DNA from: Gemmata obscuriglobus
GTDB lineage: Bacteria; Planctomycetota; Planctomycetia; Gemmatales; Gemmataceae
Reading direction: 5' to 3'
DNA: 32,000 bases
Assembly: GCF_008065095.1 (NCBI RefSeq)
Contig: NZ_CP042911.1
Location: 8,160,001 to 8,192,000 of the forward strand
Both the position numbers and the translations under genes were made by a program. Shown here in pieces: positions 8,681 to 22,258 of this stretch (its first letter is position 1; each line of letters starts with the position of its first letter). A model generated the notes under the pieces. That model was not told where the DNA came from. It was given only the letters and a program-made list of their open reading frames with translations, and ran no database searches.

Positions 8681-10192
8681 TCAACTGGCGCTGTCGCCCT
8701 TGGCCTCGCCCTCGGCGGGCGCCGGGGCCGGGGCGTCGGGCAGCACCGCCTGCTCCACGGTCGCCACCTCGCCCTGCTGCGCCTCGGAGTTGAGCTCGTA
8801 GTCCTCGTAGGTGGCGCTGCCGAGGATCAGGTCGAGCGCCTTCCGCTCGAGCAGGTCGGCCGCGACCGCCTCCATCAGGTCTTCCTTCTCGAGCCGGGCG
8901 CGGACCTTGCGCGGGCTCTCGCCCGACTGGTCCGCGATCCGGTCGATCTCGGTGTCGATGTCGTCCTCTTCGATCTCGATCTTCTCGACCTCGGCGATCT
9001 TCTGGAGCACGAAGTGCTCCTTGAGCGCCTCGGCGGTGCTCTTCAGCACGTCCTGCTCGAGGATGCGGCTGCGGCCGCGGATCTGCTCGTCGCTCATGCC
9101 CGCGTTCCGCATCTCCATGACCTTACGGGCCAGGGTCTTGCGGGCCTGCTTGCGGAGCATGTCCTGCGGCAGCTCCCACGCGGCCGCGGCGGCGATCTGC
9201 TGGAGCACCTGCTCGCGGGCCACGCGGCGCTGGGTGTACTCGAGCCGGCGGTTCAGCACCGCCTCGACCAGCTCGGTGAACGCCTCCGGGGTGCTGACCC
9301 CGAACGCCGATTCGAGCAGGTCCGACGTGAGCTCCGGCTGCCGGGTGGTCTTCACGTCCTTGACGGTGAACTGCGCCTGCACGGTCTGGCCGCGGAGCTG
9401 CTCGGTCGCGGTCTCCTGCGACAGCGTGATGTCGACCACCCGCACGTCGCCGGACTTGGCACCTGCCATCGTCTTGCCGAAGTCGGCCGCGACGCCGTCC
9501 GACAGCGCGAGCTGCGGCTCGACCTTGACCTGCACCTCGTCGAGCTTGTTGATCTCCTTGCCCTGGAAGGAGATGGCCACGTCCGCGGAGATGACGTCGT
9601 ACAGCTCGGCGACGCCCGAGTCCTTCGGCACGATCTGGCCGTACGGGTCGAGCAGCCGCTTCTTCTCGTTCGCGACCTCTTCGGCCGTGTACGTGTGGGT
9701 GGGGCGCCGGAGCTTCAGCCCCTTGTACTCGGGCAGGTCGAACTCGGGCCGGACCTCAATGTCGAACTCGTAAACGAACGGCCCCTCCTTGGGGATGTTC
9801 ACGAGGTTCGGGTCGAACTCGGGCGGGCTGAGCGGCGAGATGGCCTGCTCGTCGGCGAGCTGCTCGAGGCTCGCCATGAGCACCTGCGACTTGATCTCGT
9901 CGGCGACGGTGGTGTAGTACCGCTTCTCGATCATCTTGCGCGGGGCCTTGCCCGGGCGGAACCCGCGGACCTGCGGCTCCTCGCTGAGCGTCAGTTCCGT
10001 GAACTTCTCGTTGAACCGATCGTCGATGGCCTTGCGGTCCACGGTCACCTTGACGTGCTTTTTGCACGGCCCGATGTCCTTGATCTCGACCGTCTGAACC
10101 AGCTTGCCGTTTTCCTCACCAGCTTCTGCGCCGGGCGCTTCCGCGACGGCGGTGGCTTCGGCCGGCGGGGTGGTCTCGTCGTCGTTCGCCAT
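8681..10192 (-). CDS. tig: Trigger factor (extended acidic/Ala-Pro-rich termini)
   Basis: 503 aa. The N-terminal ribosome-binding region contains GFRPGKAPRKMIEKRY. Sits immediately upstream of clpP, the classical tig-clpP arrangement. Strong SD gggaggaaacaccc before the ATG at 10192. Confidence 0.9.
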   Translation of the reverse strand: MANDDETTPPAEATAVAEAPGAEAGEENGKLVQTVEIKDIGPCKKHVKVTVDRKAIDDRFNEKFTELTLSEEPQVRGFRPGKAPRKMIEKRYYTTVADEIKSQVLMASLEQLADEQAISPLSPPEFDPNLVNIPKEGPFVYEFDIEVRPEFDLPEYKGLKLRRPTHTYTAEEVANEKKRLLDPYGQIVPKDSGVAELYDVISADVAISFQGKEINKLDEVQVKVEPQLALSDGVAADFGKTMAGAKSGDVRVVDITLSQETATEQLRGQTVQAQFTVKDVKTTRQPELTSDLLESAFGVSTPEAFTELVEAVLNRRLEYTQRRVAREQVLQQIAAAAAWELPQDMLRKQARKTLARKVMEMRNAGMSDEQIRGRSRILEQDVLKSTAEALKEHFVLQKIAEVEKIEIEEDDIDTEIDRIADQSGESPRKVRARLEKEDLMEAVAADLLERKALDLILGSATYEDYELNSEAQQGEVATVEQAVLPDAPAPAPAEGEAKGDSAS

Positions 10193-10261
10193 GGGTGTTT
10201 CCTCCCTTGATGAAGCCGGGCCGTTCCGTCCGATTACGTCGCCCGTATGTGGAAGTATGTG

Positions 10262-10335
10262 AAAAAAACGATAAGCCGGGAAGTAGTGGGCTGGCGGGAT
10301 TGCATACCCGCCGTCGGCCCGCGACTTCCCGGCTT
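10262..10335 (-). terminator. Rho-independent terminator downstream of tRNA-Gly
   Basis: On the minus strand: AAGCCGGGAAGT ... ACTTCCCGGCTT (12-bp stem, 10324-10335 pairing with 10273-10284). An internal GGCGGG/CCCGCC sub-hairpin is present. Followed by ATCGTTTTTTT (A-run 10262-10268 on +). Confidence 0.55.
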
Positions 10336-10374
10336 CGTCTTACGCCAAAGTGTACTGGGCGTTACATCGGTCAG

Positions 10375-10446
10375 AGCGGGTGATGGGACTTGAACCCACG
10401 ACAACCTCGTTGGCAACGAGGTACTCTACCACTGAGTTACACCCGC
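10375..10446 (-). tRNA. tRNA-Gly (anticodon GCC)
   Basis: Reverse complement reads GCGGGTGTAACTCAGTGGTAGAGTACCTCGTTGCCAACGAGGTTGTCGTGGGTTCAAGTCCCATCACCCGCT. 7-bp acceptor stem, D arm, anticodon stem CCTCG/CGAGG with loop TTGCCAA, T arm GTGGG-TTCAAGT-CCCAT. No encoded CCA. Confidence 0.9.
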
Positions 10447-10573
10447 ACTTCATTCAGCCTGACACACCCATTTTTAGGGCGCGAGGTCGCGGTTTCAAGG
10501 GAGAATATTTGGATCGCGTGAGGCGGACAGTCGTGGGCGCAGAAATCACCCAACCCGATTATCCGGACCGCTT

Positions 10574-11239
10574 ATGGGGACCGCTTCAATGACCGAACAG
10601 CAGTGGCTCGCGAGTGCCTCGCCGGTGGCGATGCTGCACCACCTCAACGCCGACGGGAACGCTCGCAAGCCGCTGCTTTATGCGATAGCGGTGTGCCTGC
10701 GTGAGCCGGAGTTGAAGACGGAAGCACTGCACAGGTGGGTCGAATTGGCCGAACGGTACCTCAGAGGCGGGGTGGAGAACTGCGACCTTGACGACGAGAG
10801 CTTCAACGCTGACGCCGAAGCGAACGTTCTCGCTCAATTTAACCAAGGCCAAACGAAAGTGCAGTACGCTGCTATCGCTGACGCTCTGGGTTGCGTCTGG
10901 ATCACCGCCAATGCCGAGTATGACCTCGACGCCGACGATCCTCCCGTCCCGCTTGAGGAACTCGAGCCGGTGCGCCGGGCCAACGCCGACCTCGTGCGCG
11001 ACATCTTCGGCAACCCGTTTCGCCCGGTGCGCTTTGCTCCGGGGTGGCGCACCGATACCGCAATCGCGATCGCGCGGCAGATGTACGAATCACGCGACTT
11101 CAGCGCGATGCCGGTTCTGGCCGACGCCCTTCAAGACGCCGGGTGTGACTGCGCGGACATACTCGCGCACTGCCGCGATCCGCAACAAGTTCACGTGCGT
11201 GGGTGCTGGGTTGCTGACCTCGTACTCGGTTACGAATGA
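10574..11239 (+). CDS. Hypothetical protein of a family I recall as common in planctomycetes/myxobacteria (N-terminal WL..ASP..ML..L, C-terminal FGNPFRPV ... LADALQDAGC ... HCR....HVRGCWVADLVLG)
   Basis: 221-aa ORF. Alternative start ATG at 10589 (MTEQQWL). I cannot name the family from sequence alone. Confidence 0.7.
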   Translation: MGTASMTEQQWLASASPVAMLHHLNADGNARKPLLYAIAVCLREPELKTEALHRWVELAERYLRGGVENCDLDDESFNADAEANVLAQFNQGQTKVQYAAIADALGCVWITANAEYDLDADDPPVPLEELEPVRRANADLVRDIFGNPFRPVRFAPGWRTDTAIAIARQMYESRDFSAMPVLADALQDAGCDCADILAHCRDPQQVHVRGCWVADLVLGYE

Positions 11240-13750: not shown

Positions 13751-14212
13751 TTACCGGCTGCGGAGCCGGCTGAACAGCCCGCGGCGCGACTTGGCCGTCT
13801 CTGTGGCCGACGCCTGCACCACAACCGGGTCGGCGGTCGCGACGAAGTTTCCGAGGGTGATCTCGCTCGAGGCGGCGGCTGTGTCGGTCTTCGTGTCCAC
13901 CTTCGGCTTCGGCATCGGCATCGGGGTCGGCGCCGGGGCGGCGGTCGCCGGGGCCGGGGTGATGACCGTGCCCGGGGGCACAACGGTGGTGCCGGTGACC
14001 GGCACGGCGTAGGTCGTGGTGCCGCGGTTGCGGAGCCGGCCGAACAGCCCGCGGCGGGCGGGGGCGGCAGTGGTCACGACCGGTGCGGACTCGACGACCG
14101 GTGCGGCGGCGACGGCCGGGGCGGCCGGCGGGGTCGCTGCCGGCTTTTCCTCGGCGACAGTGAAGGGGGCGGCCAGGGCGACCAGGGCGCCGGCGAAGAC
14201 GAACCGCTTCAT
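13751..14212 (-). CDS. Small secreted Pro/Thr/Ala-rich protein with duplicated RRGLF(G/S)RLR(N/S)R motif
   Basis: ATG at 14212 preceded by GGAGGAAGCATC. Signal peptide MKRFVFAGALVALAAPFTVA. This is only the last 153 codons of the 482-aa track ORF 13751..15199. Confidence 0.65.
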   Translation of the reverse strand: MKRFVFAGALVALAAPFTVAEEKPAATPPAAPAVAAAPVVESAPVVTTAAPARRGLFGRLRNRGTTTYAVPVTGTTVVPPGTVITPAPATAAPAPTPMPMPKPKVDTKTDTAAASSEITLGNFVATADPVVVQASATETAKSRRGLFSRLRSR

Positions 14213-14401
14213 GATGCTTCCTCCTGAAACAACCGACCGCCGGACCGCCCGTCGGCCCGGCGACCGAGTCAGTCGACAGTGTAGCGACCGCGGCGGGGCG
14301 CGGGAACCTCCGCCGCCGGCACGCGGGTTGCTCTGGTTGCCGCACACCGGCCCCGGCGCGACCGAGGGCGCCCGGGCCACCGCGCTTCCGGAGAAACTGC
14401 A

Positions 14402-15286
14402 ATGAGTTCCGCCGTTCCGGGCTACCCCCCGGGGGCCGTCCCCGCCCCACACGCCGAGGCCGCCGCGGCCGCCAAGCCGGACGAAGAGATCCGCCTGTAC
14501 GGGCACAGCGACCTGTTCTACTGGTGGCCGGTTTGGGCGGTCGCGTTCCTGATGGCGGGCCTGACGTTTCTCGACGGGCACCTGATGGCCGTGGTGCCGC
14601 AGGGGACCGAGGTGCGGCAGGTGCAGACGGCGCCGGGCAGCGAGAAGACGCAGGAGGCGCTGGTGGTGCCGGAGAACAAGTCGGTACCGCCCGCCACCGC
14701 CACCAGCCCCGACGCGCAGCCGAAGCTGCGGGTGGCCGCAACGAACGCCTACGGCGTGGTGTTCGCGGGGGTGCTGATCCTGGTCATCGCGATCACCAAC
14801 CTGACGCTGCGCGGGCTGGCCTCGGTGATCGTCATCGCGCTGCTGGTCATCGCGGGGCTGACGATCGCGCTGCTGGGGTGGTGGGACAAGATTCTCATGT
14901 GGCTCGGCGGGGTGGACGTGCGGATGAACGCCGGGGGCTACCTGGCGATCGGCATCCCGGTGCTCGTGATGTGGCTGTTCGCGACGTTCATCTACGACCA
15001 CTACACGTACATCATTGTGGCCCGCGGCCAGATCCGCATCCGGCGCGAGATCGGGGACGGCGAGGTCGCCGTGGACGCCTCGGGGCTGGTGCTGGAGAAG
15101 AAGCGCGACGACCTGTTCCGGCACTGGCTGCTGGGGCTGGGCAGCGGCGACCTGCACGTGAAGACGGGCGGCCCGTCGAACCTGGACTTCAACCTGCACA
15201 ACGTGCTGTTCATCGGCTCGAAGCTGGACCGGGTGCAGAACCTGATTCGCGAGAAGGAGACCTCTCCCCAGATCGCCGGCGCGTAA
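14402..15286 (+). CDS. Hypothetical membrane protein (about 4 TM segments, C-terminal cytoplasmic PH-like/bPH-type region suspected)
   Basis: 294-aa ORF with clear hydrophobic helices (FYWWPVWAVAFLMAGLTFL; GVVFAGVLILVIAI; VIVIALLVIAGLTIALLGWW; LAIGIPVLVMWLFATFIY). Divergent from the secreted-protein gene. Confidence 0.7.
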   Translation: MSSAVPGYPPGAVPAPHAEAAAAAKPDEEIRLYGHSDLFYWWPVWAVAFLMAGLTFLDGHLMAVVPQGTEVRQVQTAPGSEKTQEALVVPENKSVPPATATSPDAQPKLRVAATNAYGVVFAGVLILVIAITNLTLRGLASVIVIALLVIAGLTIALLGWWDKILMWLGGVDVRMNAGGYLAIGIPVLVMWLFATFIYDHYTYIIVARGQIRIRREIGDGEVAVDASGLVLEKKRDDLFRHWLLGLGSGDLHVKTGGPSNLDFNLHNVLFIGSKLDRVQNLIREKETSPQIAGA

Positions 15287-15554: not shown

Positions 15555-17579
15555 TCAAACGGCACGCCCCACGCGGGCGAGTTCCAGAATCCGGTCCTCG
15601 GAGAGTTGCTCCGTCGGGATCAGGTTCCGCGCCGCCTGGATCGCGCGCACGTCCCCCTCGCGCACCAGCCAAAACTCGCCGACCTTCTGGTCCGCGACCC
15701 GATCGGCCGCGCCGGGCTTCGACTGGAGCACCGGTTTCAGCTTTTCGATCGCCACCGGCTGCTTGACCTGTCCCACCAGCCACGTCGTGATCTGGTCCCG
15801 GCACTTGTAATCGAAGTCGCCGGGGCTCTGGGTCGCCAGGAACAGGCCGAGGCCGGCGGACCGGGCGCGCCGCAGCAGGCTCTCCATCGGCCCCTTGGTC
15901 GCCGGCTTCCCGACCGCCGGGAGGTACGCGTCCGCCTCGTCGAACAGGAACACGGCCTGCAACGCGCCGGGCGCCGGGTGCCGCTGCCGCCACTGGTCGA
16001 GCGCCAGCAGCAGTTGGGACACCCAGAAGTCGATCGTAGCCGCGTCCCCGAGCGCGCCGGTGTTGAGCACCGTGAGCCGGGTGCGTCCGGGCGCCGCGAA
16101 CGCCCCGCGCCCGAGCAGCGCGTCGATGTCGAGCGCTTCCGGGGCCTCGAACAGCCGCCGGTGCCGGGCGCCGAGCGAGTACAGATCCTGCCGGAGCGTC
16201 CGGAAGTGTCGCTCCTCGTACTGGCCGTCGAACTCCATGAGGAGCGCATCGTCCTGATCGCTGACGAGCTTCTGCAGCGTGTCCACGGTGACCGCGCGTC
16301 CGGCCGCGACCAACACCTCAATGGCCTTTTGCAGGATCACCAGTTTGGGGTCGATGCCGCGGCCCCGGTACCCCATCATCTGGGCCAGTCCGGCGGCGGC
16401 GTACTGGGCGTGTTGCTCGCGCTCGCTGGCCGGGGCGGTTGCCAGCCCGGGCGGGGCGATCGAAATGGCCAGCGGGCGCCCCTCGTTCGTCCCGGGCGTG
16501 TAGAGCTGAACGTCGATCGCCGCGCGCAGCCGTGCCCGGCGGGCCGCGCGGTCGGCGTCCGGTTCGGGCGCGGCCCACGCGGCGGGGTCGGCGTACTGGG
16601 CCAGGTCGCCCTTGCGGTCGAGCAGCACGGCCGGCACCCCGGCCAGGAGCAGTTCTTCAATGATCGCGAGCGCTGCGGTCGTTTTCCCGCTCCCCGACCC
16701 GCCGAGGAACGCCGCGTGCCGGCACAGGCTCTTGGGCTCCAGTTCGACGGGCGCCGGGAGCGCGCCGCGGGTGACGGCGAACCGGATCGCTCCCGCCGCC
16801 TTCGCCGGCGCCGCGGGCGGCGCGACCGGTGCGGGGACGGCCGCCGGCGGCGCCGCCTTGGCGAGGCCCGCGGGCGGCAGCGGCGGCGCGGGCGGCTGCG
16901 GCTTCGGGGCCGCCGCTTCGAGTCGGTCCAGATCGAGCACCCGGCGAAGGGAGGGCAGGTTGGCGAGCGGCCGGACCTGCTGGCGCCAGGCGCCGAACCC
17001 GTCCGCCTTCTGGTGCTGTTGGACGAACTGGCGGAACGCGACCATGGCCCGCCAGTCGGCGTTCTCGACGACAACCTTTCGGTGCTTACCGACCGGCGCG
17101 CACAGCTTCCCGAGGCGCTTGGCGACTTCGGCTTGTGGCGATTTCGGGAAGTCGGTCGAGCGGACGAACACCGACGGCAACTCGCCGCACTGCTTGACCG
17201 TCTCCTCAATCTGGTTCTTCAGCCCGCTACCTTGTGCGCCCCGGTCGCAAATTGCAACAAGCACCTTGTCGGCTGCGTTACCGCTTTGAACCTCAACCTG
17301 GACGAACCGGCTGTCCGGGTCCGGGCTGAATACGACTCCGTTCGGCATCTCATTGGACGTGGCCCCGATGGCCCACCCCAGCAGCTCGGCGAGCTTCGTC
17401 TCGTCCACGATCGGCGGTTTAACCTTGGGAAGTAGTTCTGCCCACAACTGGCTGAAATCCGGGCGCGGTGGTGGCGGAGGAGGGGGAGGGCTGACGGGTC
17501 CGACGACCGCGATGCCACCGCCTCGGACGCACTGTTCGTGATGCTTGCGGAAGTGGTCAAGGACTTCGCGTGTGCGCAT
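15555..17579 (-). CDS. C-terminal 674 codons of an IS-split double ATPase: middle domain plus HerA/FtsK/VirB4-type P-loop ATPase
   Basis: Walker A FLGGSGSGKTT, Walker B AVFLFDEADAYL, LFLATQSPGDFD motif typical of DUF87/HerA-like ATPases. The apparent ATG at 17579 lies 4 nt from the IS3 end and is in frame with the upstream fragment once the IS is removed. Confidence 0.85.
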   Translation of the reverse strand: MRTREVLDHFRKHHEQCVRGGGIAVVGPVSPPPPPPPPRPDFSQLWAELLPKVKPPIVDETKLAELLGWAIGATSNEMPNGVVFSPDPDSRFVQVEVQSGNAADKVLVAICDRGAQGSGLKNQIEETVKQCGELPSVFVRSTDFPKSPQAEVAKRLGKLCAPVGKHRKVVVENADWRAMVAFRQFVQQHQKADGFGAWRQQVRPLANLPSLRRVLDLDRLEAAAPKPQPPAPPLPPAGLAKAAPPAAVPAPVAPPAAPAKAAGAIRFAVTRGALPAPVELEPKSLCRHAAFLGGSGSGKTTAALAIIEELLLAGVPAVLLDRKGDLAQYADPAAWAAPEPDADRAARRARLRAAIDVQLYTPGTNEGRPLAISIAPPGLATAPASEREQHAQYAAAGLAQMMGYRGRGIDPKLVILQKAIEVLVAAGRAVTVDTLQKLVSDQDDALLMEFDGQYEERHFRTLRQDLYSLGARHRRLFEAPEALDIDALLGRGAFAAPGRTRLTVLNTGALGDAATIDFWVSQLLLALDQWRQRHPAPGALQAVFLFDEADAYLPAVGKPATKGPMESLLRRARSAGLGLFLATQSPGDFDYKCRDQITTWLVGQVKQPVAIEKLKPVLQSKPGAADRVADQKVGEFWLVREGDVRAIQAARNLIPTEQLSEDRILELARVGRAV

Positions 17580-17627
17580 CCCGTACAGTGGACCCCATTG
17601 TCTAGACCAAAAAGTTGCTATCCTTCG

Positions 17628-18494
17628 CTACTGTTTCGTCGGGGCCTTCGTGGCTCCGACGCCATACACCTGAGCCGGGGTGCGGTAGTCCAGGGACTGG
17701 TGTAACCGCTCGGTGTTGTAGAACCCGAAGTACGCCCGGAGCCCACTCTCCAGGGCCGGCACCGACTCGTAACCCTTGAGGTACACGTCCTCGTACTTGA
17801 CGCTCCGCCACAGGCGCTCCACGAACACGTTGTCCAGGCACCGGCCCCGCCCGTCCATGCTCACCGCGACCCCGGCCCGCTCCAATCGCCCGACCCACGC
17901 GGCGGCCGTGAACTGGACTCCCTGGTCCGTGTTGAACACCTCCGGCTTGCCCCGGCCCAAGGCCTCCTCCAGCATGTCCTGGCAGAATGACCCGTCCAAC
18001 GTGTTGGACAGTCGCCAGGCCACCACGTACCGGCTGAACCAGTCCATCGTTGCGGCCAGGTACATGAACCCGGTGGGCATCGGGATGTACGTGATGTCCG
18101 TGCTCCACACCTGATGGACCCGGTCGATGGCCACGCCCCGCAACAGGTACGGGTACACCTTGTGCCCGGACCCGACCGACAGCTTGGGCTTGGGGTACAG
18201 GGCCTCCAACCCCATGATCCGCAACAGCCGCTGCACCCGCTTGCGGTTCACCTCGTGGCCCTGGGTGCCCAGCCACGCGGCCAGGCGCCGGCTCCCGTAG
18301 AACGGGCACGTCGTGTACTGCTCGTCGATCAACCGCATCAGCGTCAGGTTCTCCGCGCTCTCCGGGGTCGGCTCGTAGTACACCGTCGAGCGGTTCAATC
18401 CGATCAGCTCGCACTGGCGCCGGACGCTCAGCTCCGGGTGCTCGGCCTCGATCCGGGCACGCTTGGCCTCAGCCGAGGGCGGCCGATTTTTTTT
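17628..18494 (-). CDS. IS3-family transposase OrfB (DDE/rve integrase core), expressed as OrfAB by -1 frameshift
   Basis: Typical rve domain: VWSTDITYIPM ... FNTDQGVQFTA ... MDGRGRCLDNVFVERLWRSVKYEDVYL ... FYNTERLHQSLDYRTP. The frame stays open upstream to the A-run, reading KKNRPPSAEAKRARIEAEHPELSVRRQCELIGLNRSTVYY. Confidence 0.9.
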   Translation of the reverse strand, partial: KKNRPPSAEAKRARIEAEHPELSVRRQCELIGLNRSTVYYEPTPESAENLTLMRLIDEQYTTCPFYGSRRLAAWLGTQGHEVNRKRVQRLLRIMGLEALYPKPKLSVGSGHKVYPYLLRGVAIDRVHQVWSTDITYIPMPTGFMYLAATMDWFSRYVVAWRLSNTLDGSFCQDMLEEALGRGKPEVFNTDQGVQFTAAAWVGRLERAGVAVSMDGRGRCLDNVFVERLWRSVKYEDVYLKGYESVPALESGLRAYFGFYNTERLHQSLDYRTPAQVYGVGATKAPTKQ

Positions 18495-18756
18495 TCACCC
18501 AGTCGAGTTCCACCTTGAGGCGGCCGATCTGCTCGTACAACTCGGTCGTCTTGTCTTCCGGGGGGCCGGTGCCCTTCGCCCCCGAGGCGAACACGGCCTC
18601 GGCCCCGGTGAGCAACTGCTTCTTCCACCCATGAATCAGGGTCGGGTGGACGCCGTGCTGACTCGCCAGTTCGTTGATGGTCTTGTCGCCCTTGAGGGCC
18701 GCCAGCGCGACCTGGGCCTTGAACGCCGCCGAGTGACTCTTCCGCTTGCCCGCCAT
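18469..18756 (-). CDS. IS3-family transposase OrfA (HTH)
   Basis: 95 aa: MAGKRKSHSAAFKAQVALAALKGDKTINELASQHGVHPTLIHGWKKQLL ... LYEQIGRLKVELDWVKKK (HTH plus leucine zipper typical of IS3 OrfA). Confidence 0.9.
   Translation of the reverse strand: MAGKRKSHSAAFKAQVALAALKGDKTINELASQHGVHPTLIHGWKKQLLTGAEAVFASGAKGTGPPEDKTTELYEQIGRLKVELDWVKKKSAALG
18487..18495 (-). promoter_or_regulatory. Programmed -1 ribosomal frameshift site (A9 run) of the IS3 transposase
   Basis: The minus strand reads GTG AAA AAA AAA TCG near the end of orfA. The -1 frame continues into OrfB without a stop. Confidence 0.7.
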
Positions 18757-18787
18757 GGGTTCCCCTTTCCTGGGCCTCCGGTATAGC

Positions 18788-19993
18788 TTAACCGGCGGTC
18801 CAGTTTTCGGGGTCCACTATACCGGCCAGCCGCGCGACATCCGCGGTGGTGTACGGGGCGAGGGGGTTGGTAGGATCTTGCTCGACCCCAACAGCGTTGA
18901 AGAAGACTTCTAGCCGCCGCGCCAGCATTGCGCGGACTTCGTCGCCTGTGCGCACTTCGGTGAGACGGATCGGCTCCGGATCATGTTCGAGTCGGTCGAG
19001 TTTGGGACGCGGAAGGTATCCCTTTTCTCTGGAACTGTCGAACAACTCCCTCAAACACCCGATCACCACCACTGCGTTCGGCAAGGCGTCGGCAACGTCG
19101 ATCAGCGTGTTGATCGCGCACCGGAACAGTTCGCCCGGCTCGGAGTCACCTTTCGCGAGTTCAATCATCTCGTCCAACTGATCGACCAGCAGCACAAACG
19201 CCGCCGAATGCACGGCGCGCATCAGCCGCCCGAGGCCGACGATCGTCTTGAGCGGCATCTCGGGACCGGGTCGAGGAACCAAGTCGCCGAGCATCTCACG
19301 GTCGTACTTCGCCAGATCCTCGCACCGCAGCCAGCTCAGCGCCCGCGGGCGAATTCGGCCGTCGTTCGGGAGGAGGAAAAGGACCGCGCGCAACAGGTTC
19401 AGATCGATTCCCGCGAACCGCTCGTCCTGGGCCGCAACATCAGCGAACCGGAACACGATCCGTGCCGTCTCGTCCGGCTCGAGCCAGTCGCTGAGTAACT
19501 TGTCACGGTCGGCGTCGGCGATCCCGATCGCGTCGAGCAACCCGCGAGCCAGACGCATGAGCCCGGTCGTCGGGTCGCCCGGCTTGTACGGCTGCTCGAG
19601 CGAATCGAGGAGGTAACTGAGGATGTATCGCGAGTAGTTGTCGGATCGGCTGAGCATCTGTAGATAGCCGCAATACCCAGCACCGCTCTCGTGGGCCGCA
19701 GTGCGGAACGCGCGCATCAGATGCGTCTTGCCGCAGCCCGCTTCGCCGAGCAGGAGCAGGCTCTTCCCGTGCGGCGGTAGATCAGCGTCAGACGCGCGGG
19801 CCAGCAGTCGGTCGAAGGCCGCACGGGCCTCCGGGTGTACGGCACCCACGTCGAAGGGGTCCGTGGTCCAGAGCTGGCTGCCGAACACGACCCCACTAAA
19901 CACCTCGGGGCCGTCGGGCGAGCAGTACGCCGCGACTCGCGGATCGGTCGCCGCCGGCACGGACGCGGGCAGAACAGAAGCGGTGGGCGACAT
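18788..19993 (-). CDS. N-terminal 391 codons of the IS-split double ATPase: AAA/ORC-like P-loop NTPase domain (last 10 codons and the stop are supplied by the IS3 end)
   Basis: Walker A LLLLGEAGCGKTHL, Walker B AFVLLVDQLDE. The tail IVDPENWTAG-stop is encoded by the IS terminal repeat. The ATG lies 3 nt after the upstream gene stop. Confidence 0.85.
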   Translation of the reverse strand: MSPTASVLPASVPAATDPRVAAYCSPDGPEVFSGVVFGSQLWTTDPFDVGAVHPEARAAFDRLLARASDADLPPHGKSLLLLGEAGCGKTHLMRAFRTAAHESGAGYCGYLQMLSRSDNYSRYILSYLLDSLEQPYKPGDPTTGLMRLARGLLDAIGIADADRDKLLSDWLEPDETARIVFRFADVAAQDERFAGIDLNLLRAVLFLLPNDGRIRPRALSWLRCEDLAKYDREMLGDLVPRPGPEMPLKTIVGLGRLMRAVHSAAFVLLVDQLDEMIELAKGDSEPGELFRCAINTLIDVADALPNAVVVIGCLRELFDSSREKGYLPRPKLDRLEHDPEPIRLTEVRTGDEVRAMLARRLEVFFNAVGVEQDPTNPLAPYTTADVARLAGIVDPENWTAG

Positions 19994-19996
19994 GGC

Positions 19997-21037
19997 TTAG
20001 CTCCCCTCGATCAGGATGAAGTGAAAGGTGGCGGTCAGGTAGGTCGTCTCGGACGCCCGCACGTCGGCCGGGTCCATGAGTTGCACGAGGTCGGCACGGC
20101 TTAGCGTCAGCAGACGCTCGCGGTTCGCTTCGATCAATTTGGCTTTGAAGCCATCGAGGCCGAGTGCGTGGAACGGTCGGTCGTTGCGCAGTTGTTCCCA
20201 GACGTGGCTGATGAACACCTTGTACCCGCCGAACCGTCCAGTCGGGCACCGTCGTGCAGCGGCCTTCACCGTATTCGCGAACGCCTCCAGGTCGAACGGC
20301 TCCGGGTCCGCAGGCCGGCTCGAGGGCTCCGGGTGCGGGTCCGCAGCTTTCGGGCGCGGCTCGGTGTGCGATCCGTCGGCCCATCCACGCAACGCGACCG
20401 CGCGGAGGCCGTTCGTGCCGGTCCCGGGCGCGTCCAAAAGCACCCGCGGAACGGTGTTGGTCATGTCACGCTCGTCCGGAGGGACCTCGCGGCCCATCTT
20501 TCGCGCGAGAAGAAGCGGGACGAGTGTTTTAAGCTCCGTGTGGTCGGCGAACCCGAGCGCCTGACAGGCGATGGCCTCGAACACCTTTTTGAGGGTGTCG
20601 CCGGTCGCAACCGGAAGCCCGAGTTCCCGCTTCAGCAGTAGCGCGGCGAGTTTCTCGCCCTTCAACGCGTCTGGGGTTGTGCCCAGCGCCCGCGGCACGA
20701 GGAATTTCGCCTTTACGGTGCCCCAGTTCGCCCGGGGCGGCAACTGCTCCACGCCCAAGAACTGCAACGCGCGGACGCGGCCGGCGTCGGTGGCGCGCTG
20801 GCCCTTCGCGGTCACGTACCCCTCCGCCCGGAGTCCCGTCAGCGCTTGCGTCACGTCGTCGGCCGTGGGGGCGCTGCGGGAGAAGAAGACCGCCAGATCC
20901 TTCCGCAGATCACTTTCGCCGACGCTCTTCGACGCGGGTAGCAGTCGCAGCAAGATCAGGTCGGCGAGGCCCGGCGCCGCAGCCGCCGAGGGGTCGGTTG
21001 GGGATGGGGGCGGGGCCAGTTGGGCGGTCGCACTCAT
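19997..21037 (-). CDS. Hypothetical protein B of the ATPase operon (346 aa; N-terminal winged-helix-like segment, conserved-looking C-terminal block)
   Basis: ATG at 21037 overlaps the TGA of the upstream gene (ATGA). MSATAQLAPPPSPTD ... LADLILLRLLPAS ... ALTGLRAEGYVTAKGQ ... GGYKVFISHVWEQL ... FKAKLIEANRERLLTLSRADL. In the track it is hidden inside the chimeric 753-aa ORF. Confidence 0.75.
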   Translation of the reverse strand: MSATAQLAPPPSPTDPSAAAAPGLADLILLRLLPASKSVGESDLRKDLAVFFSRSAPTADDVTQALTGLRAEGYVTAKGQRATDAGRVRALQFLGVEQLPPRANWGTVKAKFLVPRALGTTPDALKGEKLAALLLKRELGLPVATGDTLKKVFEAIACQALGFADHTELKTLVPLLLARKMGREVPPDERDMTNTVPRVLLDAPGTGTNGLRAVALRGWADGSHTEPRPKAADPHPEPSSRPADPEPFDLEAFANTVKAAARRCPTGRFGGYKVFISHVWEQLRNDRPFHALGLDGFKAKLIEANRERLLTLSRADLVQLMDPADVRASETTYLTATFHFILIEGS

Positions 21038-22258
21038 GCGGCACCTGTGGGTTGGGCGGGGCCGCGGCGCTCGGCCACGACCTCCAGAATCGTGTTCAGA
21101 ATCCGTTCGAGGTCGGTCACCACGTCCTCCGCCAGGAACCGCAGCACACGGTACCCGTGCTTCTGGTACAGGTGGTCCTTGCGCCGGTCCCGGCGGTACT
21201 GCTCGGGGTTCAGGTGGTAGAACGCGCCGTCCACCTCCACCGCCAGCTTCAGGCCGGCGGTGGAGGTGGACGGCTTCGGCCGTCTGGTTCCCGTGCTGGA
21301 ACGGGAGCGGTTGGTTCGGGCGGAACAGGCCGGCGGTCTCCGGCAGCGATTCCAACTGCCCGAACAGAAACTCCTCGTGGACGCTGCGGAAGTCGGACGC
21401 GAGGTCCGCCGGGGCGGGATTCCGGACGACCCGCGCCGCGCCCACGAACGCCGACGCCACGTCGTCCGCCACCCCGTCGTTCACGAGCCGGGCCACCGTC
21501 GCGACCGGCGGGTCGAGGCCGGCCGCGCGGAGCCGCGCTTCCAGATCGTTCCCGGCGACGCCGCGAACTTCGATGAACCCCTCGCTCGCCAGCGCGGCGG
21601 TCCGCGTCCCCTCGAATTGCGCCGCGAACTGGTCGTACTCGTCGCGGGTAACGGCCGCCCCGACCGGCACGCGCGGTTCGGTGACGGCGACGGCCTCAAG
21701 GAGCCGCAGTGCCGCCGGCAACGCGCCGGGGGCCGGGGTGAGGAGCAGCGCCGGCCACAGCTCCGGCGGGTACAGATCCGCGACCGCGCGCACCACCCGG
21801 CCGGGGTCGCCGGACGCACCCGCCACCTCGCGCACGAACCGCGGCGGATCGGTCGCAGCCCCTTGCGCCCGGTCGGACAGGAGGAGCCGCGCGGCGGTTG
21901 CAGCCGGCGCCCGCGGGTCGATCGGCAGGCCGCGCCACAGGACGTCCAGGTCGTAGAGAGTCGGGCGGGCCGGCAGGGTGACGGCGGCCGCCCCGGGGCC
22001 GGCCCAGCGCTCAACACACCGGACCGCGAGAGCAACGGCGTCCGTCGCGCCGAGTGCGACCGCGACCCACGCAGTCAGCACCTCGTCGGGTTCGGCCGTG
22101 GCCGCTACGGCATGTGGCCGCGGTAAGCTGGCAACCCAGAGGCTCCACGCGCGCCGGCCGAGCCCGACCGGGCCGACCAGAACCGCGATTGTGGGAACGC
22201 CCTGCGCGACGCGGGCGTGGTGCCGCAGGAACAATTCGGCGGTCGGTACGGTACTCAT
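21034..22258 (-). pseudogene. Protein A of the ATPase operon: N-domain with degenerate P-loop plus C-terminal DUF559 (Vsr-like PD-(D/E)xK endonuclease fold). Frameshifted at about 21250-21260
   Basis: Frame 1 (from ATG 22258): IAVLVGPVGLGRR ... EEFLFGQLESLPETAGLFRPNQPLPFQHGNQTAEAVHLHRR. Frame 2 continues LKLAVEVDGAFYHLNPEQYRRDRRKDHLYQKHGYRVLRFLAEDVVTDLERILNTILEV, ending at the TGA at 21034-21036. The two halves form one DUF559-type domain only if one nucleotide is removed near cgccggcctgaag. Confidence 0.7.

What the first reader, a model, noticed from the sequence alone, without database searches (positions are those of the whole stretch)
17581..18824. IS3 element splits one large ATPase gene exactly in frame; the two annotated ORFs are halves of a single 1065-codon gene
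Removing 17584-18821 and one copy of the CCG duplication gives, on the minus strand, ...GAT GTC GCG CGG CTG GCC GGG ATG CGC ACA CGC GAA... This reads ...DVARLAG MRTREVLDHF..., so the 18788..19993 ORF (391 native codons) runs in frame into the 15555..17579 ORF (674 codons). The current stop of the upstream half, and its last 10 residues IVDPENWTAG, come from the IS terminal repeat. The IS looks active: near-perfect terminal repeats, an exact 3-bp target duplication, and intact orfA/orfB with an A9 slippery site. That suggests a recent insertion. The downstream half keeps an ATG 4 nt from the IS end, so a free-standing HerA-type ATPase might still be made from outward IS transcription.
Basis: seen in the sequence. 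Interest (0 to 1): 0.75.

Follow-up and report, generated by a model that had tools for sequence, protein, structure and literature searches.

The report
Insertion sequence splits one ATPase gene
A 1238-bp mobile element of the IS3 family has jumped into a single 1065-codon ATPase gene of Gemmata obscuriglobus, so public annotation lists two separate proteins; this is an ordinary recent gene knock-out, in a three-gene cassette that carries a second disabling mutation.

Summary
Window 17584..18821 is a 1238-bp IS3-family element flanked by a 3-bp CCG duplication. Removing it and one CCG joins ORFs 18788..19993 and 15555..17579 (minus strand) into one 1065-codon frame. More than 110 uninterrupted homologues of 1030-1100 aa cover 97-100% of the repaired protein. 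The junction lies inside a conserved motif, G(L/M)RTRDVLD. The closest orthologue, from Gemmata algarum, has a single CGG at the site.

The IS is active. Five of six other copies in the same genome are 100% identical and one is 99.9%. The insertion is present in three independent assemblies. The repaired protein keeps 93/93 family-invariant residues, so the knock-out is recent.

One correction: orfB lies in the +1 frame, not -1. The A9 run is therefore a transcriptional-slippage site of the kind shown for IS1447, and 74 of 86 related loci share this layout.

Two additions. The gene is the last of a conserved cassette: a DUF559 nuclease-like gene, a gene of unknown function, and the AAA+/HerA ATPase. 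In this strain the nuclease gene also carries a frameshift that turned a quasi-palindrome into a near-perfect (21/22) one.

The idea that a free-standing HerA fragment is still expressed remains untested. Overall this is ordinary biology, correctly read.

The parts
17584..18821 (-). 1238-bp IS3-family insertion sequence. Its genes are on the minus strand, the same orientation as the interrupted gene.
   Evidence: The fused OrfAB matches NCBIfam NF033516 (IS3 family transposase) at 318 bits over the full profile. Pfam finds HTH_Tnp_1, HTH_21, rve and rve_3. Six other copies in G. obscuriglobus are 99.9-100% identical over exactly these 1238 bp.
18809..18821 (-). Left terminal inverted repeat in IS orientation: TATAGTGGACCCC.
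   Evidence: It starts 5'-TA, not TG.
17584..17596 (+). Right terminal inverted repeat, TACAGTGGACCCC as read inward on the + strand. It matches the left repeat at 12 of 13 positions.
17581..17583 (.). Target-site duplication, copy 1 (CCG).
   Evidence: The orthologous site in G. algarum JC717 carries this triplet once.
18822..18824 (.). Target-site duplication, copy 2 (CCG).
   Evidence: Three other copies of the IS also have 3-bp duplications: CCC, GTT and GAC.
18469..18756 (-). IS orfA, 95 aa, helix-turn-helix protein.
   Evidence: Pfam HTH_Tnp_1, E=1e-10. The exact protein occurs on 22 contigs.
18487..18495 (-). A9 run (T9 on the + strand) at the orfA/orfB overlap; the presumed transcriptional-slippage site.
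   Evidence: an A8 transcript gives a 375-aa OrfAB, A11 gives 376 aa, and A10 gives a 109-aa dead end. A9(G) with orfB at +1 is found in 74 of 86 related loci.
17628..18494 (-). IS orfB reading frame (DDE/rve catalytic part), +1 relative to orfA. It is open from just after the TGA that overlaps the first A of the run, down to its stop at 17628-17630.
   Evidence: frame 0 translation; rve, E=5e-22.
18825..19993 (-). 5' part of the interrupted gene C, approximately codons 1-390. Codon 391 (GGG, Gly) spans the duplicated triplet and is re-formed only after excision. It encodes most of the AAA+ domain, with Walker A GEAGCGKT.
15555..17579 (-). 3' part of the interrupted gene C, codons 392-1065 plus stop. 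It encodes the last helices of the AAA+ domain, the middle domain and the HerA-like ATPase (Walker A GGSGSGKT).
19997..21037 (-). Gene B of the cassette (about 346 aa, no recognisable family). It is intact here.
   Evidence: tblastn with JC717 gene B: 95% identity over residues 1-343 in one frame. No Pfam or PADLOC hit.
21037..22258 (-). Gene A of the cassette (DUF559/Vsr-like endonuclease domain at the C terminus). It is frameshifted in this strain, so that it reads through into gene B as a 753-aa ORF.
   Evidence: tblastn: residues 1-329 lie in frame -2 and residues 323-407 in frame -3. The out-of-frame fragment 21037-21291 still hits DUF559 at E=2e-9.
21226..21274 (.). 22-bp inverted repeat (21/22 complementary, 5-nt spacer) that contains the +1 frameshift of gene A. 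Orthologues have only an imperfect palindrome here.
   Evidence: The identical sequence is present in six contigs from independent assemblies.

Best explanation
A 1238-bp IS3-family insertion sequence transposed into codon 391/392 of a single 1065-codon gene and duplicated the 3-bp target CCG. It sits in the same orientation as the gene.

Consequences for the gene:
- Translation of the 5' part runs 10 codons into the IS end and stops, giving a 401-aa product.
- That product lacks the last helices of the N-terminal AAA+ domain, the middle domain and the C-terminal HerA-type ATPase.
- The full-length protein can therefore no longer be made.

The IS:
- It belongs to the variant of IS3 elements whose orfB lies +1 of orfA behind an A9 run.
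- Inferred: RNA polymerase slippage produces A8 transcripts that encode the 375-aa OrfAB transposase.
- Inferred from knowledge of the IS3 family: transposition is by copy-out/paste-in.
- Near-identical sister copies show the element is currently mobile in this genome.

The interrupted gene:
- It is the last gene of a conserved three-gene cassette: A, with a DUF559/Vsr-like nuclease domain; B, unknown; C, the AAA+ plus HerA-like ATPase.
- The cassette has unrelated flanking genes in different Gemmataceae.
- Inferred: it is a nuclease-plus-translocase system acting on DNA, possibly anti-phage or anti-plasmid defence.
- In G. obscuriglobus, gene A also carries a frameshift, so the cassette has two independent lesions and is most likely non-functional.
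For: Shown:
- In-frame join into 1065 codons with no stop.
- More than 110 uninterrupted full-length homologues.
- A conserved motif and invariant residues lie either side of the junction.
- The G. algarum orthologue has a single CGG at the empty site.
- The IS is an IS3-family transposase element.
- Element ends are defined by seven copies, six of them identical (the window's plus five others), and 3-bp duplications flank four of the seven.
- The insertion is present in LR593888.1, CP025958.1, ABGO01000327.1 and Logan read assemblies.
- The repaired protein keeps 93/93 invariant and 162/167 near-invariant positions, the same as intact orthologues.
- A9 with orfB at +1 occurs in 74 of 86 related loci, with transposase identity down to roughly 45-60%.
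- An A8 transcript gives a 375-aa OrfAB.
- IS1447 cDNA data show A8 and A10 transcripts from an A9 template (PMC6211511). Runs of 9 A in IS elements serve transcriptional slippage (PMC1088944).
- The A-B-C cassette is present in all 6 distinct genomic loci of intact homologues examined (7 locus records; Telmatocola seen twice).
- The C-terminal domain has a HerA fold, with HerA, Sir2-HerA, DndH-C and TdpA as best matches.
- Gene A frameshift.
Against: - No expression or transposition data for this organism were examined. Slippage at the A9 run and loss of function are inferred.
- Only one strain lineage of G. obscuriglobus is available, so no empty site within the species was seen and the insertion cannot be dated.
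- 3-bp duplications are absent at three of seven copies. This may reflect recombination between copies or nested insertion.
- The function of the cassette is unknown. Gene B has no detectable homology. PADLOC gives only partial HerA/mad8 hits.
Confidence: 0.93

Rival explanations
1. The two ORFs are naturally separate genes, and the IS merely landed between them. The in-frame join would then be coincidence.
For: A random join has a one-in-three chance of being in frame. Public records list both halves as ordinary proteins.
Against: - Without the IS the upstream ORF has no stop codon for 674 further codons.
- All of the more than 110 listed homologues covering 97-100% of the query are single proteins of about 1060 aa.
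- The junction lies inside the conserved motif G(L/M)RTRDVLD, just before a modelled helix of the N-terminal domain.
Confidence: 0.01
2. The IS at this locus is an assembly artefact: a repeat was misplaced.
For: The IS is multi-copy, and short-read contigs break at it (L094 and L095).
Against: - Both junctions are spanned in three independent assemblies: ABGO01000327.1, CP025958.1 and LR593888.1.
- A clean 3-bp duplication flanks it.
Confidence: 0.01
3. This IS copy is itself dead: the A9 run is a frameshift mutation of an A7/A8 ancestor that uncoupled orfB.
For: orfB is in the non-canonical +1 frame. Eight related loci have A8 with orfA and orfB in frame.
Against: - A9 with orfB at +1 is the majority state: 74 of 86 loci across several phyla. 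It includes all seven G. obscuriglobus copies and 26 or more copies in Limnoglobus roseus.
- Multiple identical copies imply recent transposition.
- IS1447 with the same layout is experimentally active (PMC6211511).
Confidence: 0.03
4. The 3' part is still expressed as a free-standing protein carrying the middle domain and the HerA ATPase, from read-through or outward IS transcription. It would start at the ATG 4 nt from the IS end or at a downstream start, and would retain some function.
For: - The IS has the same orientation as the gene.
- No terminator-like site lies inside the IS.
- The orfB stop is about 46 nt upstream of the ATG.
- The middle and HerA domains are separate modules behind a disordered linker.
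- The ORF is undecayed.
Against: - No promoter-like site lies in the IS ends.
- The ATG encodes an internal L/M residue, not a conserved start.
- No family member is a natural stand-alone version, apart from fragments.
- The partner nuclease gene A is frameshifted too, so a functional system is unlikely.
- The lack of decay is equally explained by a recent insertion.
Confidence: 0.12

Closest known systems
IS1447 (ISfinder IS120) of Clostridium thermocellum, an IS3-family element using transcriptional slippage (PMC6211511)
   Same: - orfA/orfB layout with orfB in the +1 frame.
- A run of nine A at the overlap.
- Inverted repeats starting 5'-TA instead of TG.
- 3-bp target duplications.
- Many near-identical copies per genome that split host genes.
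   Different: - The host is a planctomycete, whereas the paper describes the IS1447 group as Firmicutes-enriched and not closely related to non-Firmicutes elements.
- Sequence relatedness to IS1447 was not measured here.
- Slippage was not measured for this element.
- No convincing stem-loop next to the A9 run: folds are no better than shuffles.
Canonical IS3-family elements (IS911, IS3, IS150, IS2, IS407)
   Same: - Length of about 1.2 kb.
- HTH OrfA plus DDE (rve) OrfB, with a fused OrfAB transposase.
- 3-bp duplication.
- Full-length match to the IS3 family model.
   Different: - The canonical elements use -1 ribosomal frameshifting on A6G-type heptamers and end in TG...CA.
- This element needs a +1-equivalent shift at A9 and ends in TA...TA.
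HerA-type ATPase/effector pairs: HerA-NurA, Sir2-HerA, HerA-DUF4297, TdpAB, DndFGH (DndH C-domain)
   Same: - The C-terminal 420 aa of the interrupted protein has the HerA/FtsK fold. Foldseek E-values are 7e-13 to 1e-8, and TM-score is 0.72 normalised to the DndH C-domain entry 7es4.
- The gene is encoded next to a nuclease-fold protein (DUF559).
   Different: - The partner is a DUF559/Vsr-like protein plus an unknown 340-aa protein, not NurA, Sir2, DUF4297 or TdpB.
- The HerA module is fused to an N-terminal AAA+ domain, which resembles BrxC, RdrA and ORC only weakly, and to a middle domain.
- Sequence-profile matches to Pfam HerA_C, DUF87 and TrwB clear those models' cut-offs but cover only ~55-60 residues around the Walker A motif; matches to the NCBIfam HerA/CedD models fall far below their cut-offs.

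Membership tests
IS3 family insertion sequence | DDE (rve) transposase with an N-terminal HTH, matching the family profile over its full length. | tested here: met
   NF033516: 318 bits (cut-off 160), profile positions 2-368 of 369. Pfam rve, rve_3, HTH_21 and HTH_Tnp_1.
IS3 family insertion sequence | Two consecutive ORFs (orfA, orfB) fused by programmed -1 ribosomal frameshifting at an A6G-type motif. | tested here: not met
   Two ORFs are present, but orfB is +1 of orfA and the motif is A9. This is the known IS1447-type variant.
IS3 family insertion sequence | Terminal inverted repeats ending 5'-TG...CA-3'. | tested here: not met
   The ends are 5'-TATAGTGG...CCACTGTA-3' in all seven copies.
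IS3 family insertion sequence | Length of 1.2-1.6 kb and a 3-5 bp target duplication. | tested here: met
   1238 bp. CCG/CCG here; CCC, GTT and GAC at three other copies.
IS1447/IS120-like subgroup (PMC6211511) | An A9 run at the orfA end with orfB in the +1 frame. | tested here: met
IS1447/IS120-like subgroup (PMC6211511) | Inverted repeats beginning 5'-TA; 3-4 bp direct repeats. | tested here: met
IS1447/IS120-like subgroup (PMC6211511) | Transcripts with A8/A10 produced from the A9 template (transcriptional slippage). | not testable with these tools
   This needs cDNA sequencing of the G. obscuriglobus IS transcripts.
IS1447/IS120-like subgroup (PMC6211511) | Phylogenetic grouping of OrfAB with IS1447. 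| not tested
None of the 80 best related loci is from Firmicutes.
HerA/FtsK-type P-loop ATPase (C-terminal domain of the interrupted protein) | Walker A/B motifs plus the HerA-like fold. | tested here: met
   - Invariant GGSGSGKTT, and an invariant D-E-A motif consistent with a Walker B (my reading of the invariant-column list).
- Pfam HerA_C and DUF87 above their cut-offs.
- Foldseek top hits are HerA, Sir2-HerA and DndH-C.
Known HerA-based defence systems (Sir2-HerA, HerA-DUF4297, TdpAB, DndFGH) | The cognate effector gene (Sir2, DUF4297, TdpB, DndF/G) next to the HerA gene. | tested here: not met
   In all 6 distinct genomic loci (7 locus records; Telmatocola seen twice) the neighbours are a DUF559 protein and an unknown 320-346-aa protein. 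PADLOC gives only partial mad8/HerA hits and nothing for gene B.
DUF559 / Vsr-like endonuclease (gene A) | A C-terminal DUF559 domain with the acidic motif (E-A-D...E-V-D-G). | tested here: inconclusive
   - Intact in orthologues: DUF559 at E=7e-9, and a weak match to the I-Bth0305I structure 3r3p.
- In the window the domain is split by a +1 frameshift immediately before the conserved Asp. The full 753-aa ORF gives no Pfam hit.

The most novel reading that the evidence does not exclude
The A-B-C cassette would be a previously undescribed DNA-targeting defence system of Planctomycetes. It consists of a DUF559/Vsr-like nuclease, an unknown 340-aa protein, and a 1060-aa protein fusing an AAA+ domain to a HerA-type ATPase. 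HerA-type translocase and nuclease would be coupled as in HerA-NurA, Sir2-HerA or DndFGH, but with a new architecture. The G. obscuriglobus type strain would have lost the system through two independent recent mutations: the IS insertion in C and a templated palindrome frameshift in A. This would be a snapshot of defence-system turnover. Separately, the IS belongs to a multi-phylum clade with a conserved A9/+1 layout. That would extend the transcriptional-slippage type of IS3 elements, so far described as 'Firmicutes-enriched', to Planctomycetota, Acidobacteriota, Chloroflexota and Bacteroidota.
Probability: 0.35. Interest if true: 0.5.

Novelty: new member of a known kind. Interest (0 to 1): 0.3.

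Why it matters
- **Annotation.** Public records list the fragments as ordinary proteins: WP_010048945.1 'ATP-binding protein', 401 aa; 'DUF853/DUF87 domain-containing protein', 617-630 aa; and a 753-aa 'hypothetical protein'. They are in fact pieces of two disrupted genes. Ten residues of the 401-aa protein are IS-derived.
- **Strain biology.** The model planctomycete G. obscuriglobus carries a mobile, multi-copy IS3-type element that is still inactivating genes. Its type strain lacks a working copy of a cassette that is conserved in every one of the 6 distinct genomic loci of homologues examined across Gemmataceae and related planctomycetes.
- **IS biology.** The A9/+1 layout, experimentally tied to transcriptional slippage in IS1447, is conserved in a broad clade outside Firmicutes.

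None of this overturns current understanding. An IS-split gene is routine.

Tried and rejected
- **Genome scan for sister copies.** The genome-contig scan with OrfAB returned no G. obscuriglobus locus, so the source genome seems absent from that collection. Copies in the same genome were found instead by exact look-up of OrfA. A total copy number for the complete genome could not be obtained.
- **Wrong ORF at first.** I initially submitted ORF 17602..18414 as orfB and got no Pfam hit. It is an overlapping spurious frame. The true orfB frame ends at 17628.
- **Approximate fusion.** My first hand-made OrfAB (377 aa) had 'KKKIG' at the joint instead of the exact A8 product 'KKN' (375 aa). This does not affect the profile matches.
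- **Promoter and terminator scan of the IS and junctions.** No promoter-like site, and one terminator-like site outside the IS that is not above shuffles. This gives no support for outward transcription. The scan is sigma-70-based and may not fit Planctomycetes.
- **RNA folding around the A9 run.** z = -0.3 for either side and -2.1 for the 121-nt span. No convincing stimulatory hairpin.
- **PDB sequence searches.** Only weak hits: YjgR and HerA for C, the Vsr-like homing endonuclease 3r3p for A, and nothing meaningful for B.
- **Foldseek of the N-terminal half.** Only generic AAA+ matches with TM-score at most 0.39: BrxC, RdrA, ORC/Cdc6, TnsC. I therefore do not assign it to BREX, RADAR or ORC.
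- **PADLOC.** A partial mad8 hit (E=2e-18) and short HerA/IetA hits. No known system is recovered.
- **ARAGORN 'tRNA-???' at 21242..21335.** Rejected as an artefact of the palindrome in gene A.
- **Literature on G. obscuriglobus IS elements.** Nothing specific found.
Full report
**1. The observation**

- On the + strand the left junction reads ...GCGCATCCCG|TACAGTGGACCCC. The right junction reads GGGGTCCACTATA|CCGGCCAG.
- A 1238-bp element therefore occupies 17584..18821, flanked by CCG at 17581-17583 and at 18822-18824.
- The outer 13 bp of the ends are inverted repeats matching at 12 of 13 positions. Further in, similarity is weaker, at about 18 of 25, counted by eye from the alignment printed.
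- Deleting 17584..18824 in silico gives a minus-strand ORF of 3198 nt: 1065 codons plus stop, with no internal stop. The junction reads ...DVARLAG|MRTREVLDHF.
- The present upstream ORF (18788..19993) ends ...ARLAGIVDPENWTAG*. Its last ten residues and the stop are read from the IS end.
- The downstream ATG (17577-17579) lies 4 nt from the IS.
- The 13-mer end motif occurs only at these two positions in the window, against 0.23 expected.

**2. It is an insertion sequence, and a mobile one**

- The element encodes a 95-aa helix-turn-helix OrfA at 18469..18756 (Pfam HTH_Tnp_1).
- It also encodes an OrfB frame ending at 17628, with HTH_21, rve and rve_3 domains.
- The fused protein matches the NCBIfam IS3-family transposase model over its whole length, at 318 bits against a cut-off of 160.
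- The exact OrfA protein is encoded on 22 contigs of public assemblies.
- Six further G. obscuriglobus loci carry the same 1238-bp element. Five are 100.0% identical and one has a single mismatch.
- Identity stops exactly at TATAGTGGACCCC... and ...GGGGTCCACTGTA in every copy, which fixes the boundaries independently of this locus.
- Four of the seven copies, including this one, have 3-bp target duplications: CGG, CCC, GTT and GAC in IS orientation.
- One of the others abuts a partial copy of the IS, and two lie in a cluster of copies. Nested insertion or recombination between copies is a plausible reason for the missing duplications.

**3. The frameshift site needs a correction**

- orfB lies in the +1 frame relative to orfA, not the canonical -1 frame of IS3 elements.
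- With the templated A9 run (18487-18495), orfA terminates five codons after the run.
- A transcript with A8 gives a 375-aa OrfAB. A11 gives 376 aa. A10 gives a 109-aa dead end.
- This is not a defect of this copy. I examined 86 loci: 80 related loci from other genomes, the six sister copies, and the window.
  - 74 have A9 or A9G with orfB at +1. Transposase identity to the query falls to roughly 45-60%. The genomes are labelled Planctomycetota, Acidobacteriota, Chloroflexota, Bacteroidota and others.
  - Eight have A8 with the two ORFs in frame.
- The same architecture is described for IS1447 (ISfinder IS120) of Clostridium thermocellum: A9, orfB at +1, inverted repeats starting 5'-TA, and 3-4 bp direct repeats. 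There, cDNA cloning showed A8 and A10 transcripts from the A9 template (PMC6211511).
- Conserved 9A runs in IS elements were proposed earlier as transcriptional-slippage sites (PMC1088944).
- I therefore infer transcriptional slippage here. This was not measured.
- RNA folds next to the run are no better than shuffled controls.

**4. The two ORFs are halves of one gene**

- A search with the repaired 1065-aa protein found 266 relatives.
  - More than 110 of the 120 listed are single proteins of 1030-1100 aa. They cover 97-100% of the query at 45-90% identity.
  - Those that carry an organism name are from Gemmataceae and other Planctomycetes.
  - The best is a 1068-aa protein of Gemmata sp. 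JC717 (G. algarum) at 90% identity.
- The only 100% matches are fragments from Gemmata obscuriglobus, which identifies the source organism.
- In a 63-sequence alignment the junction falls inside the conserved motif G(L/M)RTRDVLD. R395 and L398 (P0001 numbering) are invariant just after it, and P380 is invariant just before it.
- The window's Met392 is Leu or Met in homologues. It is an internal residue, not a conserved start.
- At the DNA level the G. algarum orthologue reads ctggccgggctgcgc, with the CGG triplet present once.
- An assembly artefact is excluded. ABGO01000327.1, CP025958.1 and LR593888.1 all span both junctions.

**5. Timing**

- The repaired protein keeps 93 of 93 invariant family positions and 162 of 167 nearly invariant ones. 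Intact orthologues miss 2-5 of the latter, so the numbers are the same.
- The IS copy is also identical to its sisters.
- Both facts point to an evolutionarily recent insertion.
- All available data come from one strain lineage, so the event cannot be dated and no empty allele was seen within the species.

**6. What the gene is**

- Pfam finds AAA_22 and AAA_16 around a Walker A at residues 83-90 (GEAGCGKT). It finds HerA_C, DUF87 and TrwB around a second Walker A at about residue 680 (GGSGSGKT).
- An AlphaFold2 model of the G. algarum orthologue has mean pLDDT 89.6 and shows three modules:
  - residues 16-421, an AAA+ domain;
  - residues 433-624, an alpha/beta middle domain;
  - residues 649-1068;
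  - the modules are separated by disordered Pro-rich linkers.
- The IS cut lies just before the last long helix (394-411) of the first module.
- Foldseek against the PDB places the C-terminal module with HerA, Sir2-HerA, TdpA, HerA-DUF4297, TrwB and the DndH C-domain (7es4, TM-score 0.72 normalised to the target).
- A separate model of the window's N-terminal fragment (pLDDT 90.8) matches only generic AAA+ proteins weakly: BrxC, RdrA, ORC/Cdc6 and TnsC, with TM-score at most 0.39.

**7. Genomic context**

- In all 6 distinct genomic loci of intact homologues examined, the gene is the last of three co-oriented, abutting or overlapping genes. The loci are G. algarum, G. palustris, Urbifossiella limnaea, Telmatocola sphagniphila (seen in two records), LR594584.1 and a metagenomic contig.
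  - A is about 400-418 aa, with a C-terminal DUF559/MTES_1575 Vsr-like endonuclease domain.
  - B is about 320-346 aa, with no detectable family.
  - C is the ATPase.
- The genes flanking the trio are unrelated from genus to genus.
- This pattern, and the pairing of a HerA-type motor with a nuclease-fold protein, resembles known HerA-based systems. However, none of their effector genes is present, and PADLOC recovers no known system.
- A defence or other DNA-processing role is therefore an inference, not a finding.

**8. A second lesion in the same cassette**

- In the window, genes A and B appear as one 753-aa ORF (19997..22258).
- tblastn with the G. algarum proteins shows A residues 1-329 in one frame and residues 323-407 in another. 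B follows, intact, at 95% identity.
- The shift is a +1-nt complex change at the conserved E-A-D-L-L motif of the DUF559 domain. All four orthologues compared keep this motif.
- In the window the changed stretch is a near-exact (21/22) reverse complement of the sequence just downstream. Together they form a 22-bp inverted repeat that is 95% complementary, with arms at 21226-21247 and 21253-21274. Orthologues have only an imperfect palindrome there.
- This is the signature expected of a template-switch 'quasi-palindrome correction' mutation. That is my inference.
- It is not a sequencing error. The identical sequence is present in six contigs from independent assemblies.
- The out-of-frame C-terminal fragment still scores as DUF559, whereas the 753-aa ORF does not.
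- The cassette therefore has two independent disabling mutations in this strain. Which came first cannot be told.

**9. The free-standing HerA idea**

In favour:
- The IS has the same orientation as the gene.
- There is no terminator-like site inside the IS.
- The 3' part contains complete middle and HerA modules.

Against:
- There is no promoter-like site in the IS ends.
- The ATG is an internal codon.
- No natural stand-alone version was seen among the listed homologues, apart from fragments.
- The partner nuclease gene is broken too.

It remains possible but unsupported; I put it at about 0.12.

**10. Verdict**

This is a recent insertion of an active IS3-family element into a single 1065-codon gene.
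- Refinements:
  - The IS is of the A9/+1 transcriptional-slippage type, with TA ends.
  - The interrupted gene belongs to a conserved, uncharacterised three-gene cassette combining a nuclease-like protein, an unknown protein and the AAA+/HerA ATPase.
  - That cassette carries a second, mechanistically interesting frameshift in this strain.
- As biology it is ordinary: an IS-generated pseudogene that public annotation does not flag.
- The modest interest lies in the candidate cassette and in the wide distribution of the slippage-type IS.

Noticed in passing
window 21226-21274 (within gene A, 21037..22258, minus strand): Gene A, the DUF559 nuclease-like gene two genes upstream of the IS-split gene, carries a +1 frameshift. 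The shift lies inside a 22-bp inverted repeat (21/22 complementary) that is only an imperfect palindrome in four orthologues. This looks like a template-switch (quasi-palindrome correction) mutation. It fuses A out of frame to gene B, giving the 753-aa ORF 19997..22258. It is present in all assemblies of the strain.
   Followed up: yes
window 21242-21335 (+): ARAGORN calls a 'tRNA-???' with a two-base anticodon here. It overlaps the palindrome inside gene A and is almost certainly an artefact of that hairpin.
   Followed up: partly
L010, L013-L034, L050 (Limnoglobus roseus PX52, NZ_CP042425.1): A related IS is present in at least 26 copies in one Limnoglobus roseus chromosome. Its transposase is about 72% identical, and it has the same A9G/+1 layout. 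This suggests a burst of the same IS type in another member of the Gemmataceae.
   Followed up: no
L006, L007, L008, L035, L042, L049, L054, L075: Eight related IS loci have an A8 run with orfA and orfB in one frame, so the transposase is constitutively fused. These could be natural fused variants, replication-slippage mutants or homopolymer assembly errors.
   Followed up: no
L087 2645-4173; L089/L090 (ABGO01000001.1, about 151-162 kb): In the same genome, one IS copy directly follows a partial copy (IS positions 1-291). That locus sits next to phage-like genes (Mu F, protease, capsid). Two further copies lie about 2 kb apart in inverted orientation. At least five copies sit in one 196-kb contig, so this is an IS-rich, prophage-like region.
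   Followed up: no
window 10374-10446 (-), and the 10001-11000 block: A tRNA-Gly(GCC) gene lies in the only block of the window with clearly lower G+C: 0.605 against about 0.68 elsewhere.
   Followed up: no
window 13751-15199 (-) versus L001 13421-14356: Synteny with G. algarum JC717 holds upstream of the cassette (OTCase, SDF transporter, acyltransferase/AMP-binding gene). It breaks immediately downstream of gene C. The window has a 482-aa ORF with no family hit followed by an amidohydrolase, whereas JC717 has a metallo-beta-lactamase-fold gene.
   Followed up: partly
window 15555-19993; public records WP_010048945.1, AWM41971.1/QEG32048.1, WP_050790368.1, WP_232068438.1: Public annotation gives the gene fragments ordinary protein accessions and names: 'ATP-binding protein', 'DUF853/DUF87 domain-containing protein' and 'hypothetical protein'. 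They are not flagged as pseudogenes. The start chosen for the 3' fragment differs between records (617, 630 or 674 aa).
   Followed up: partly
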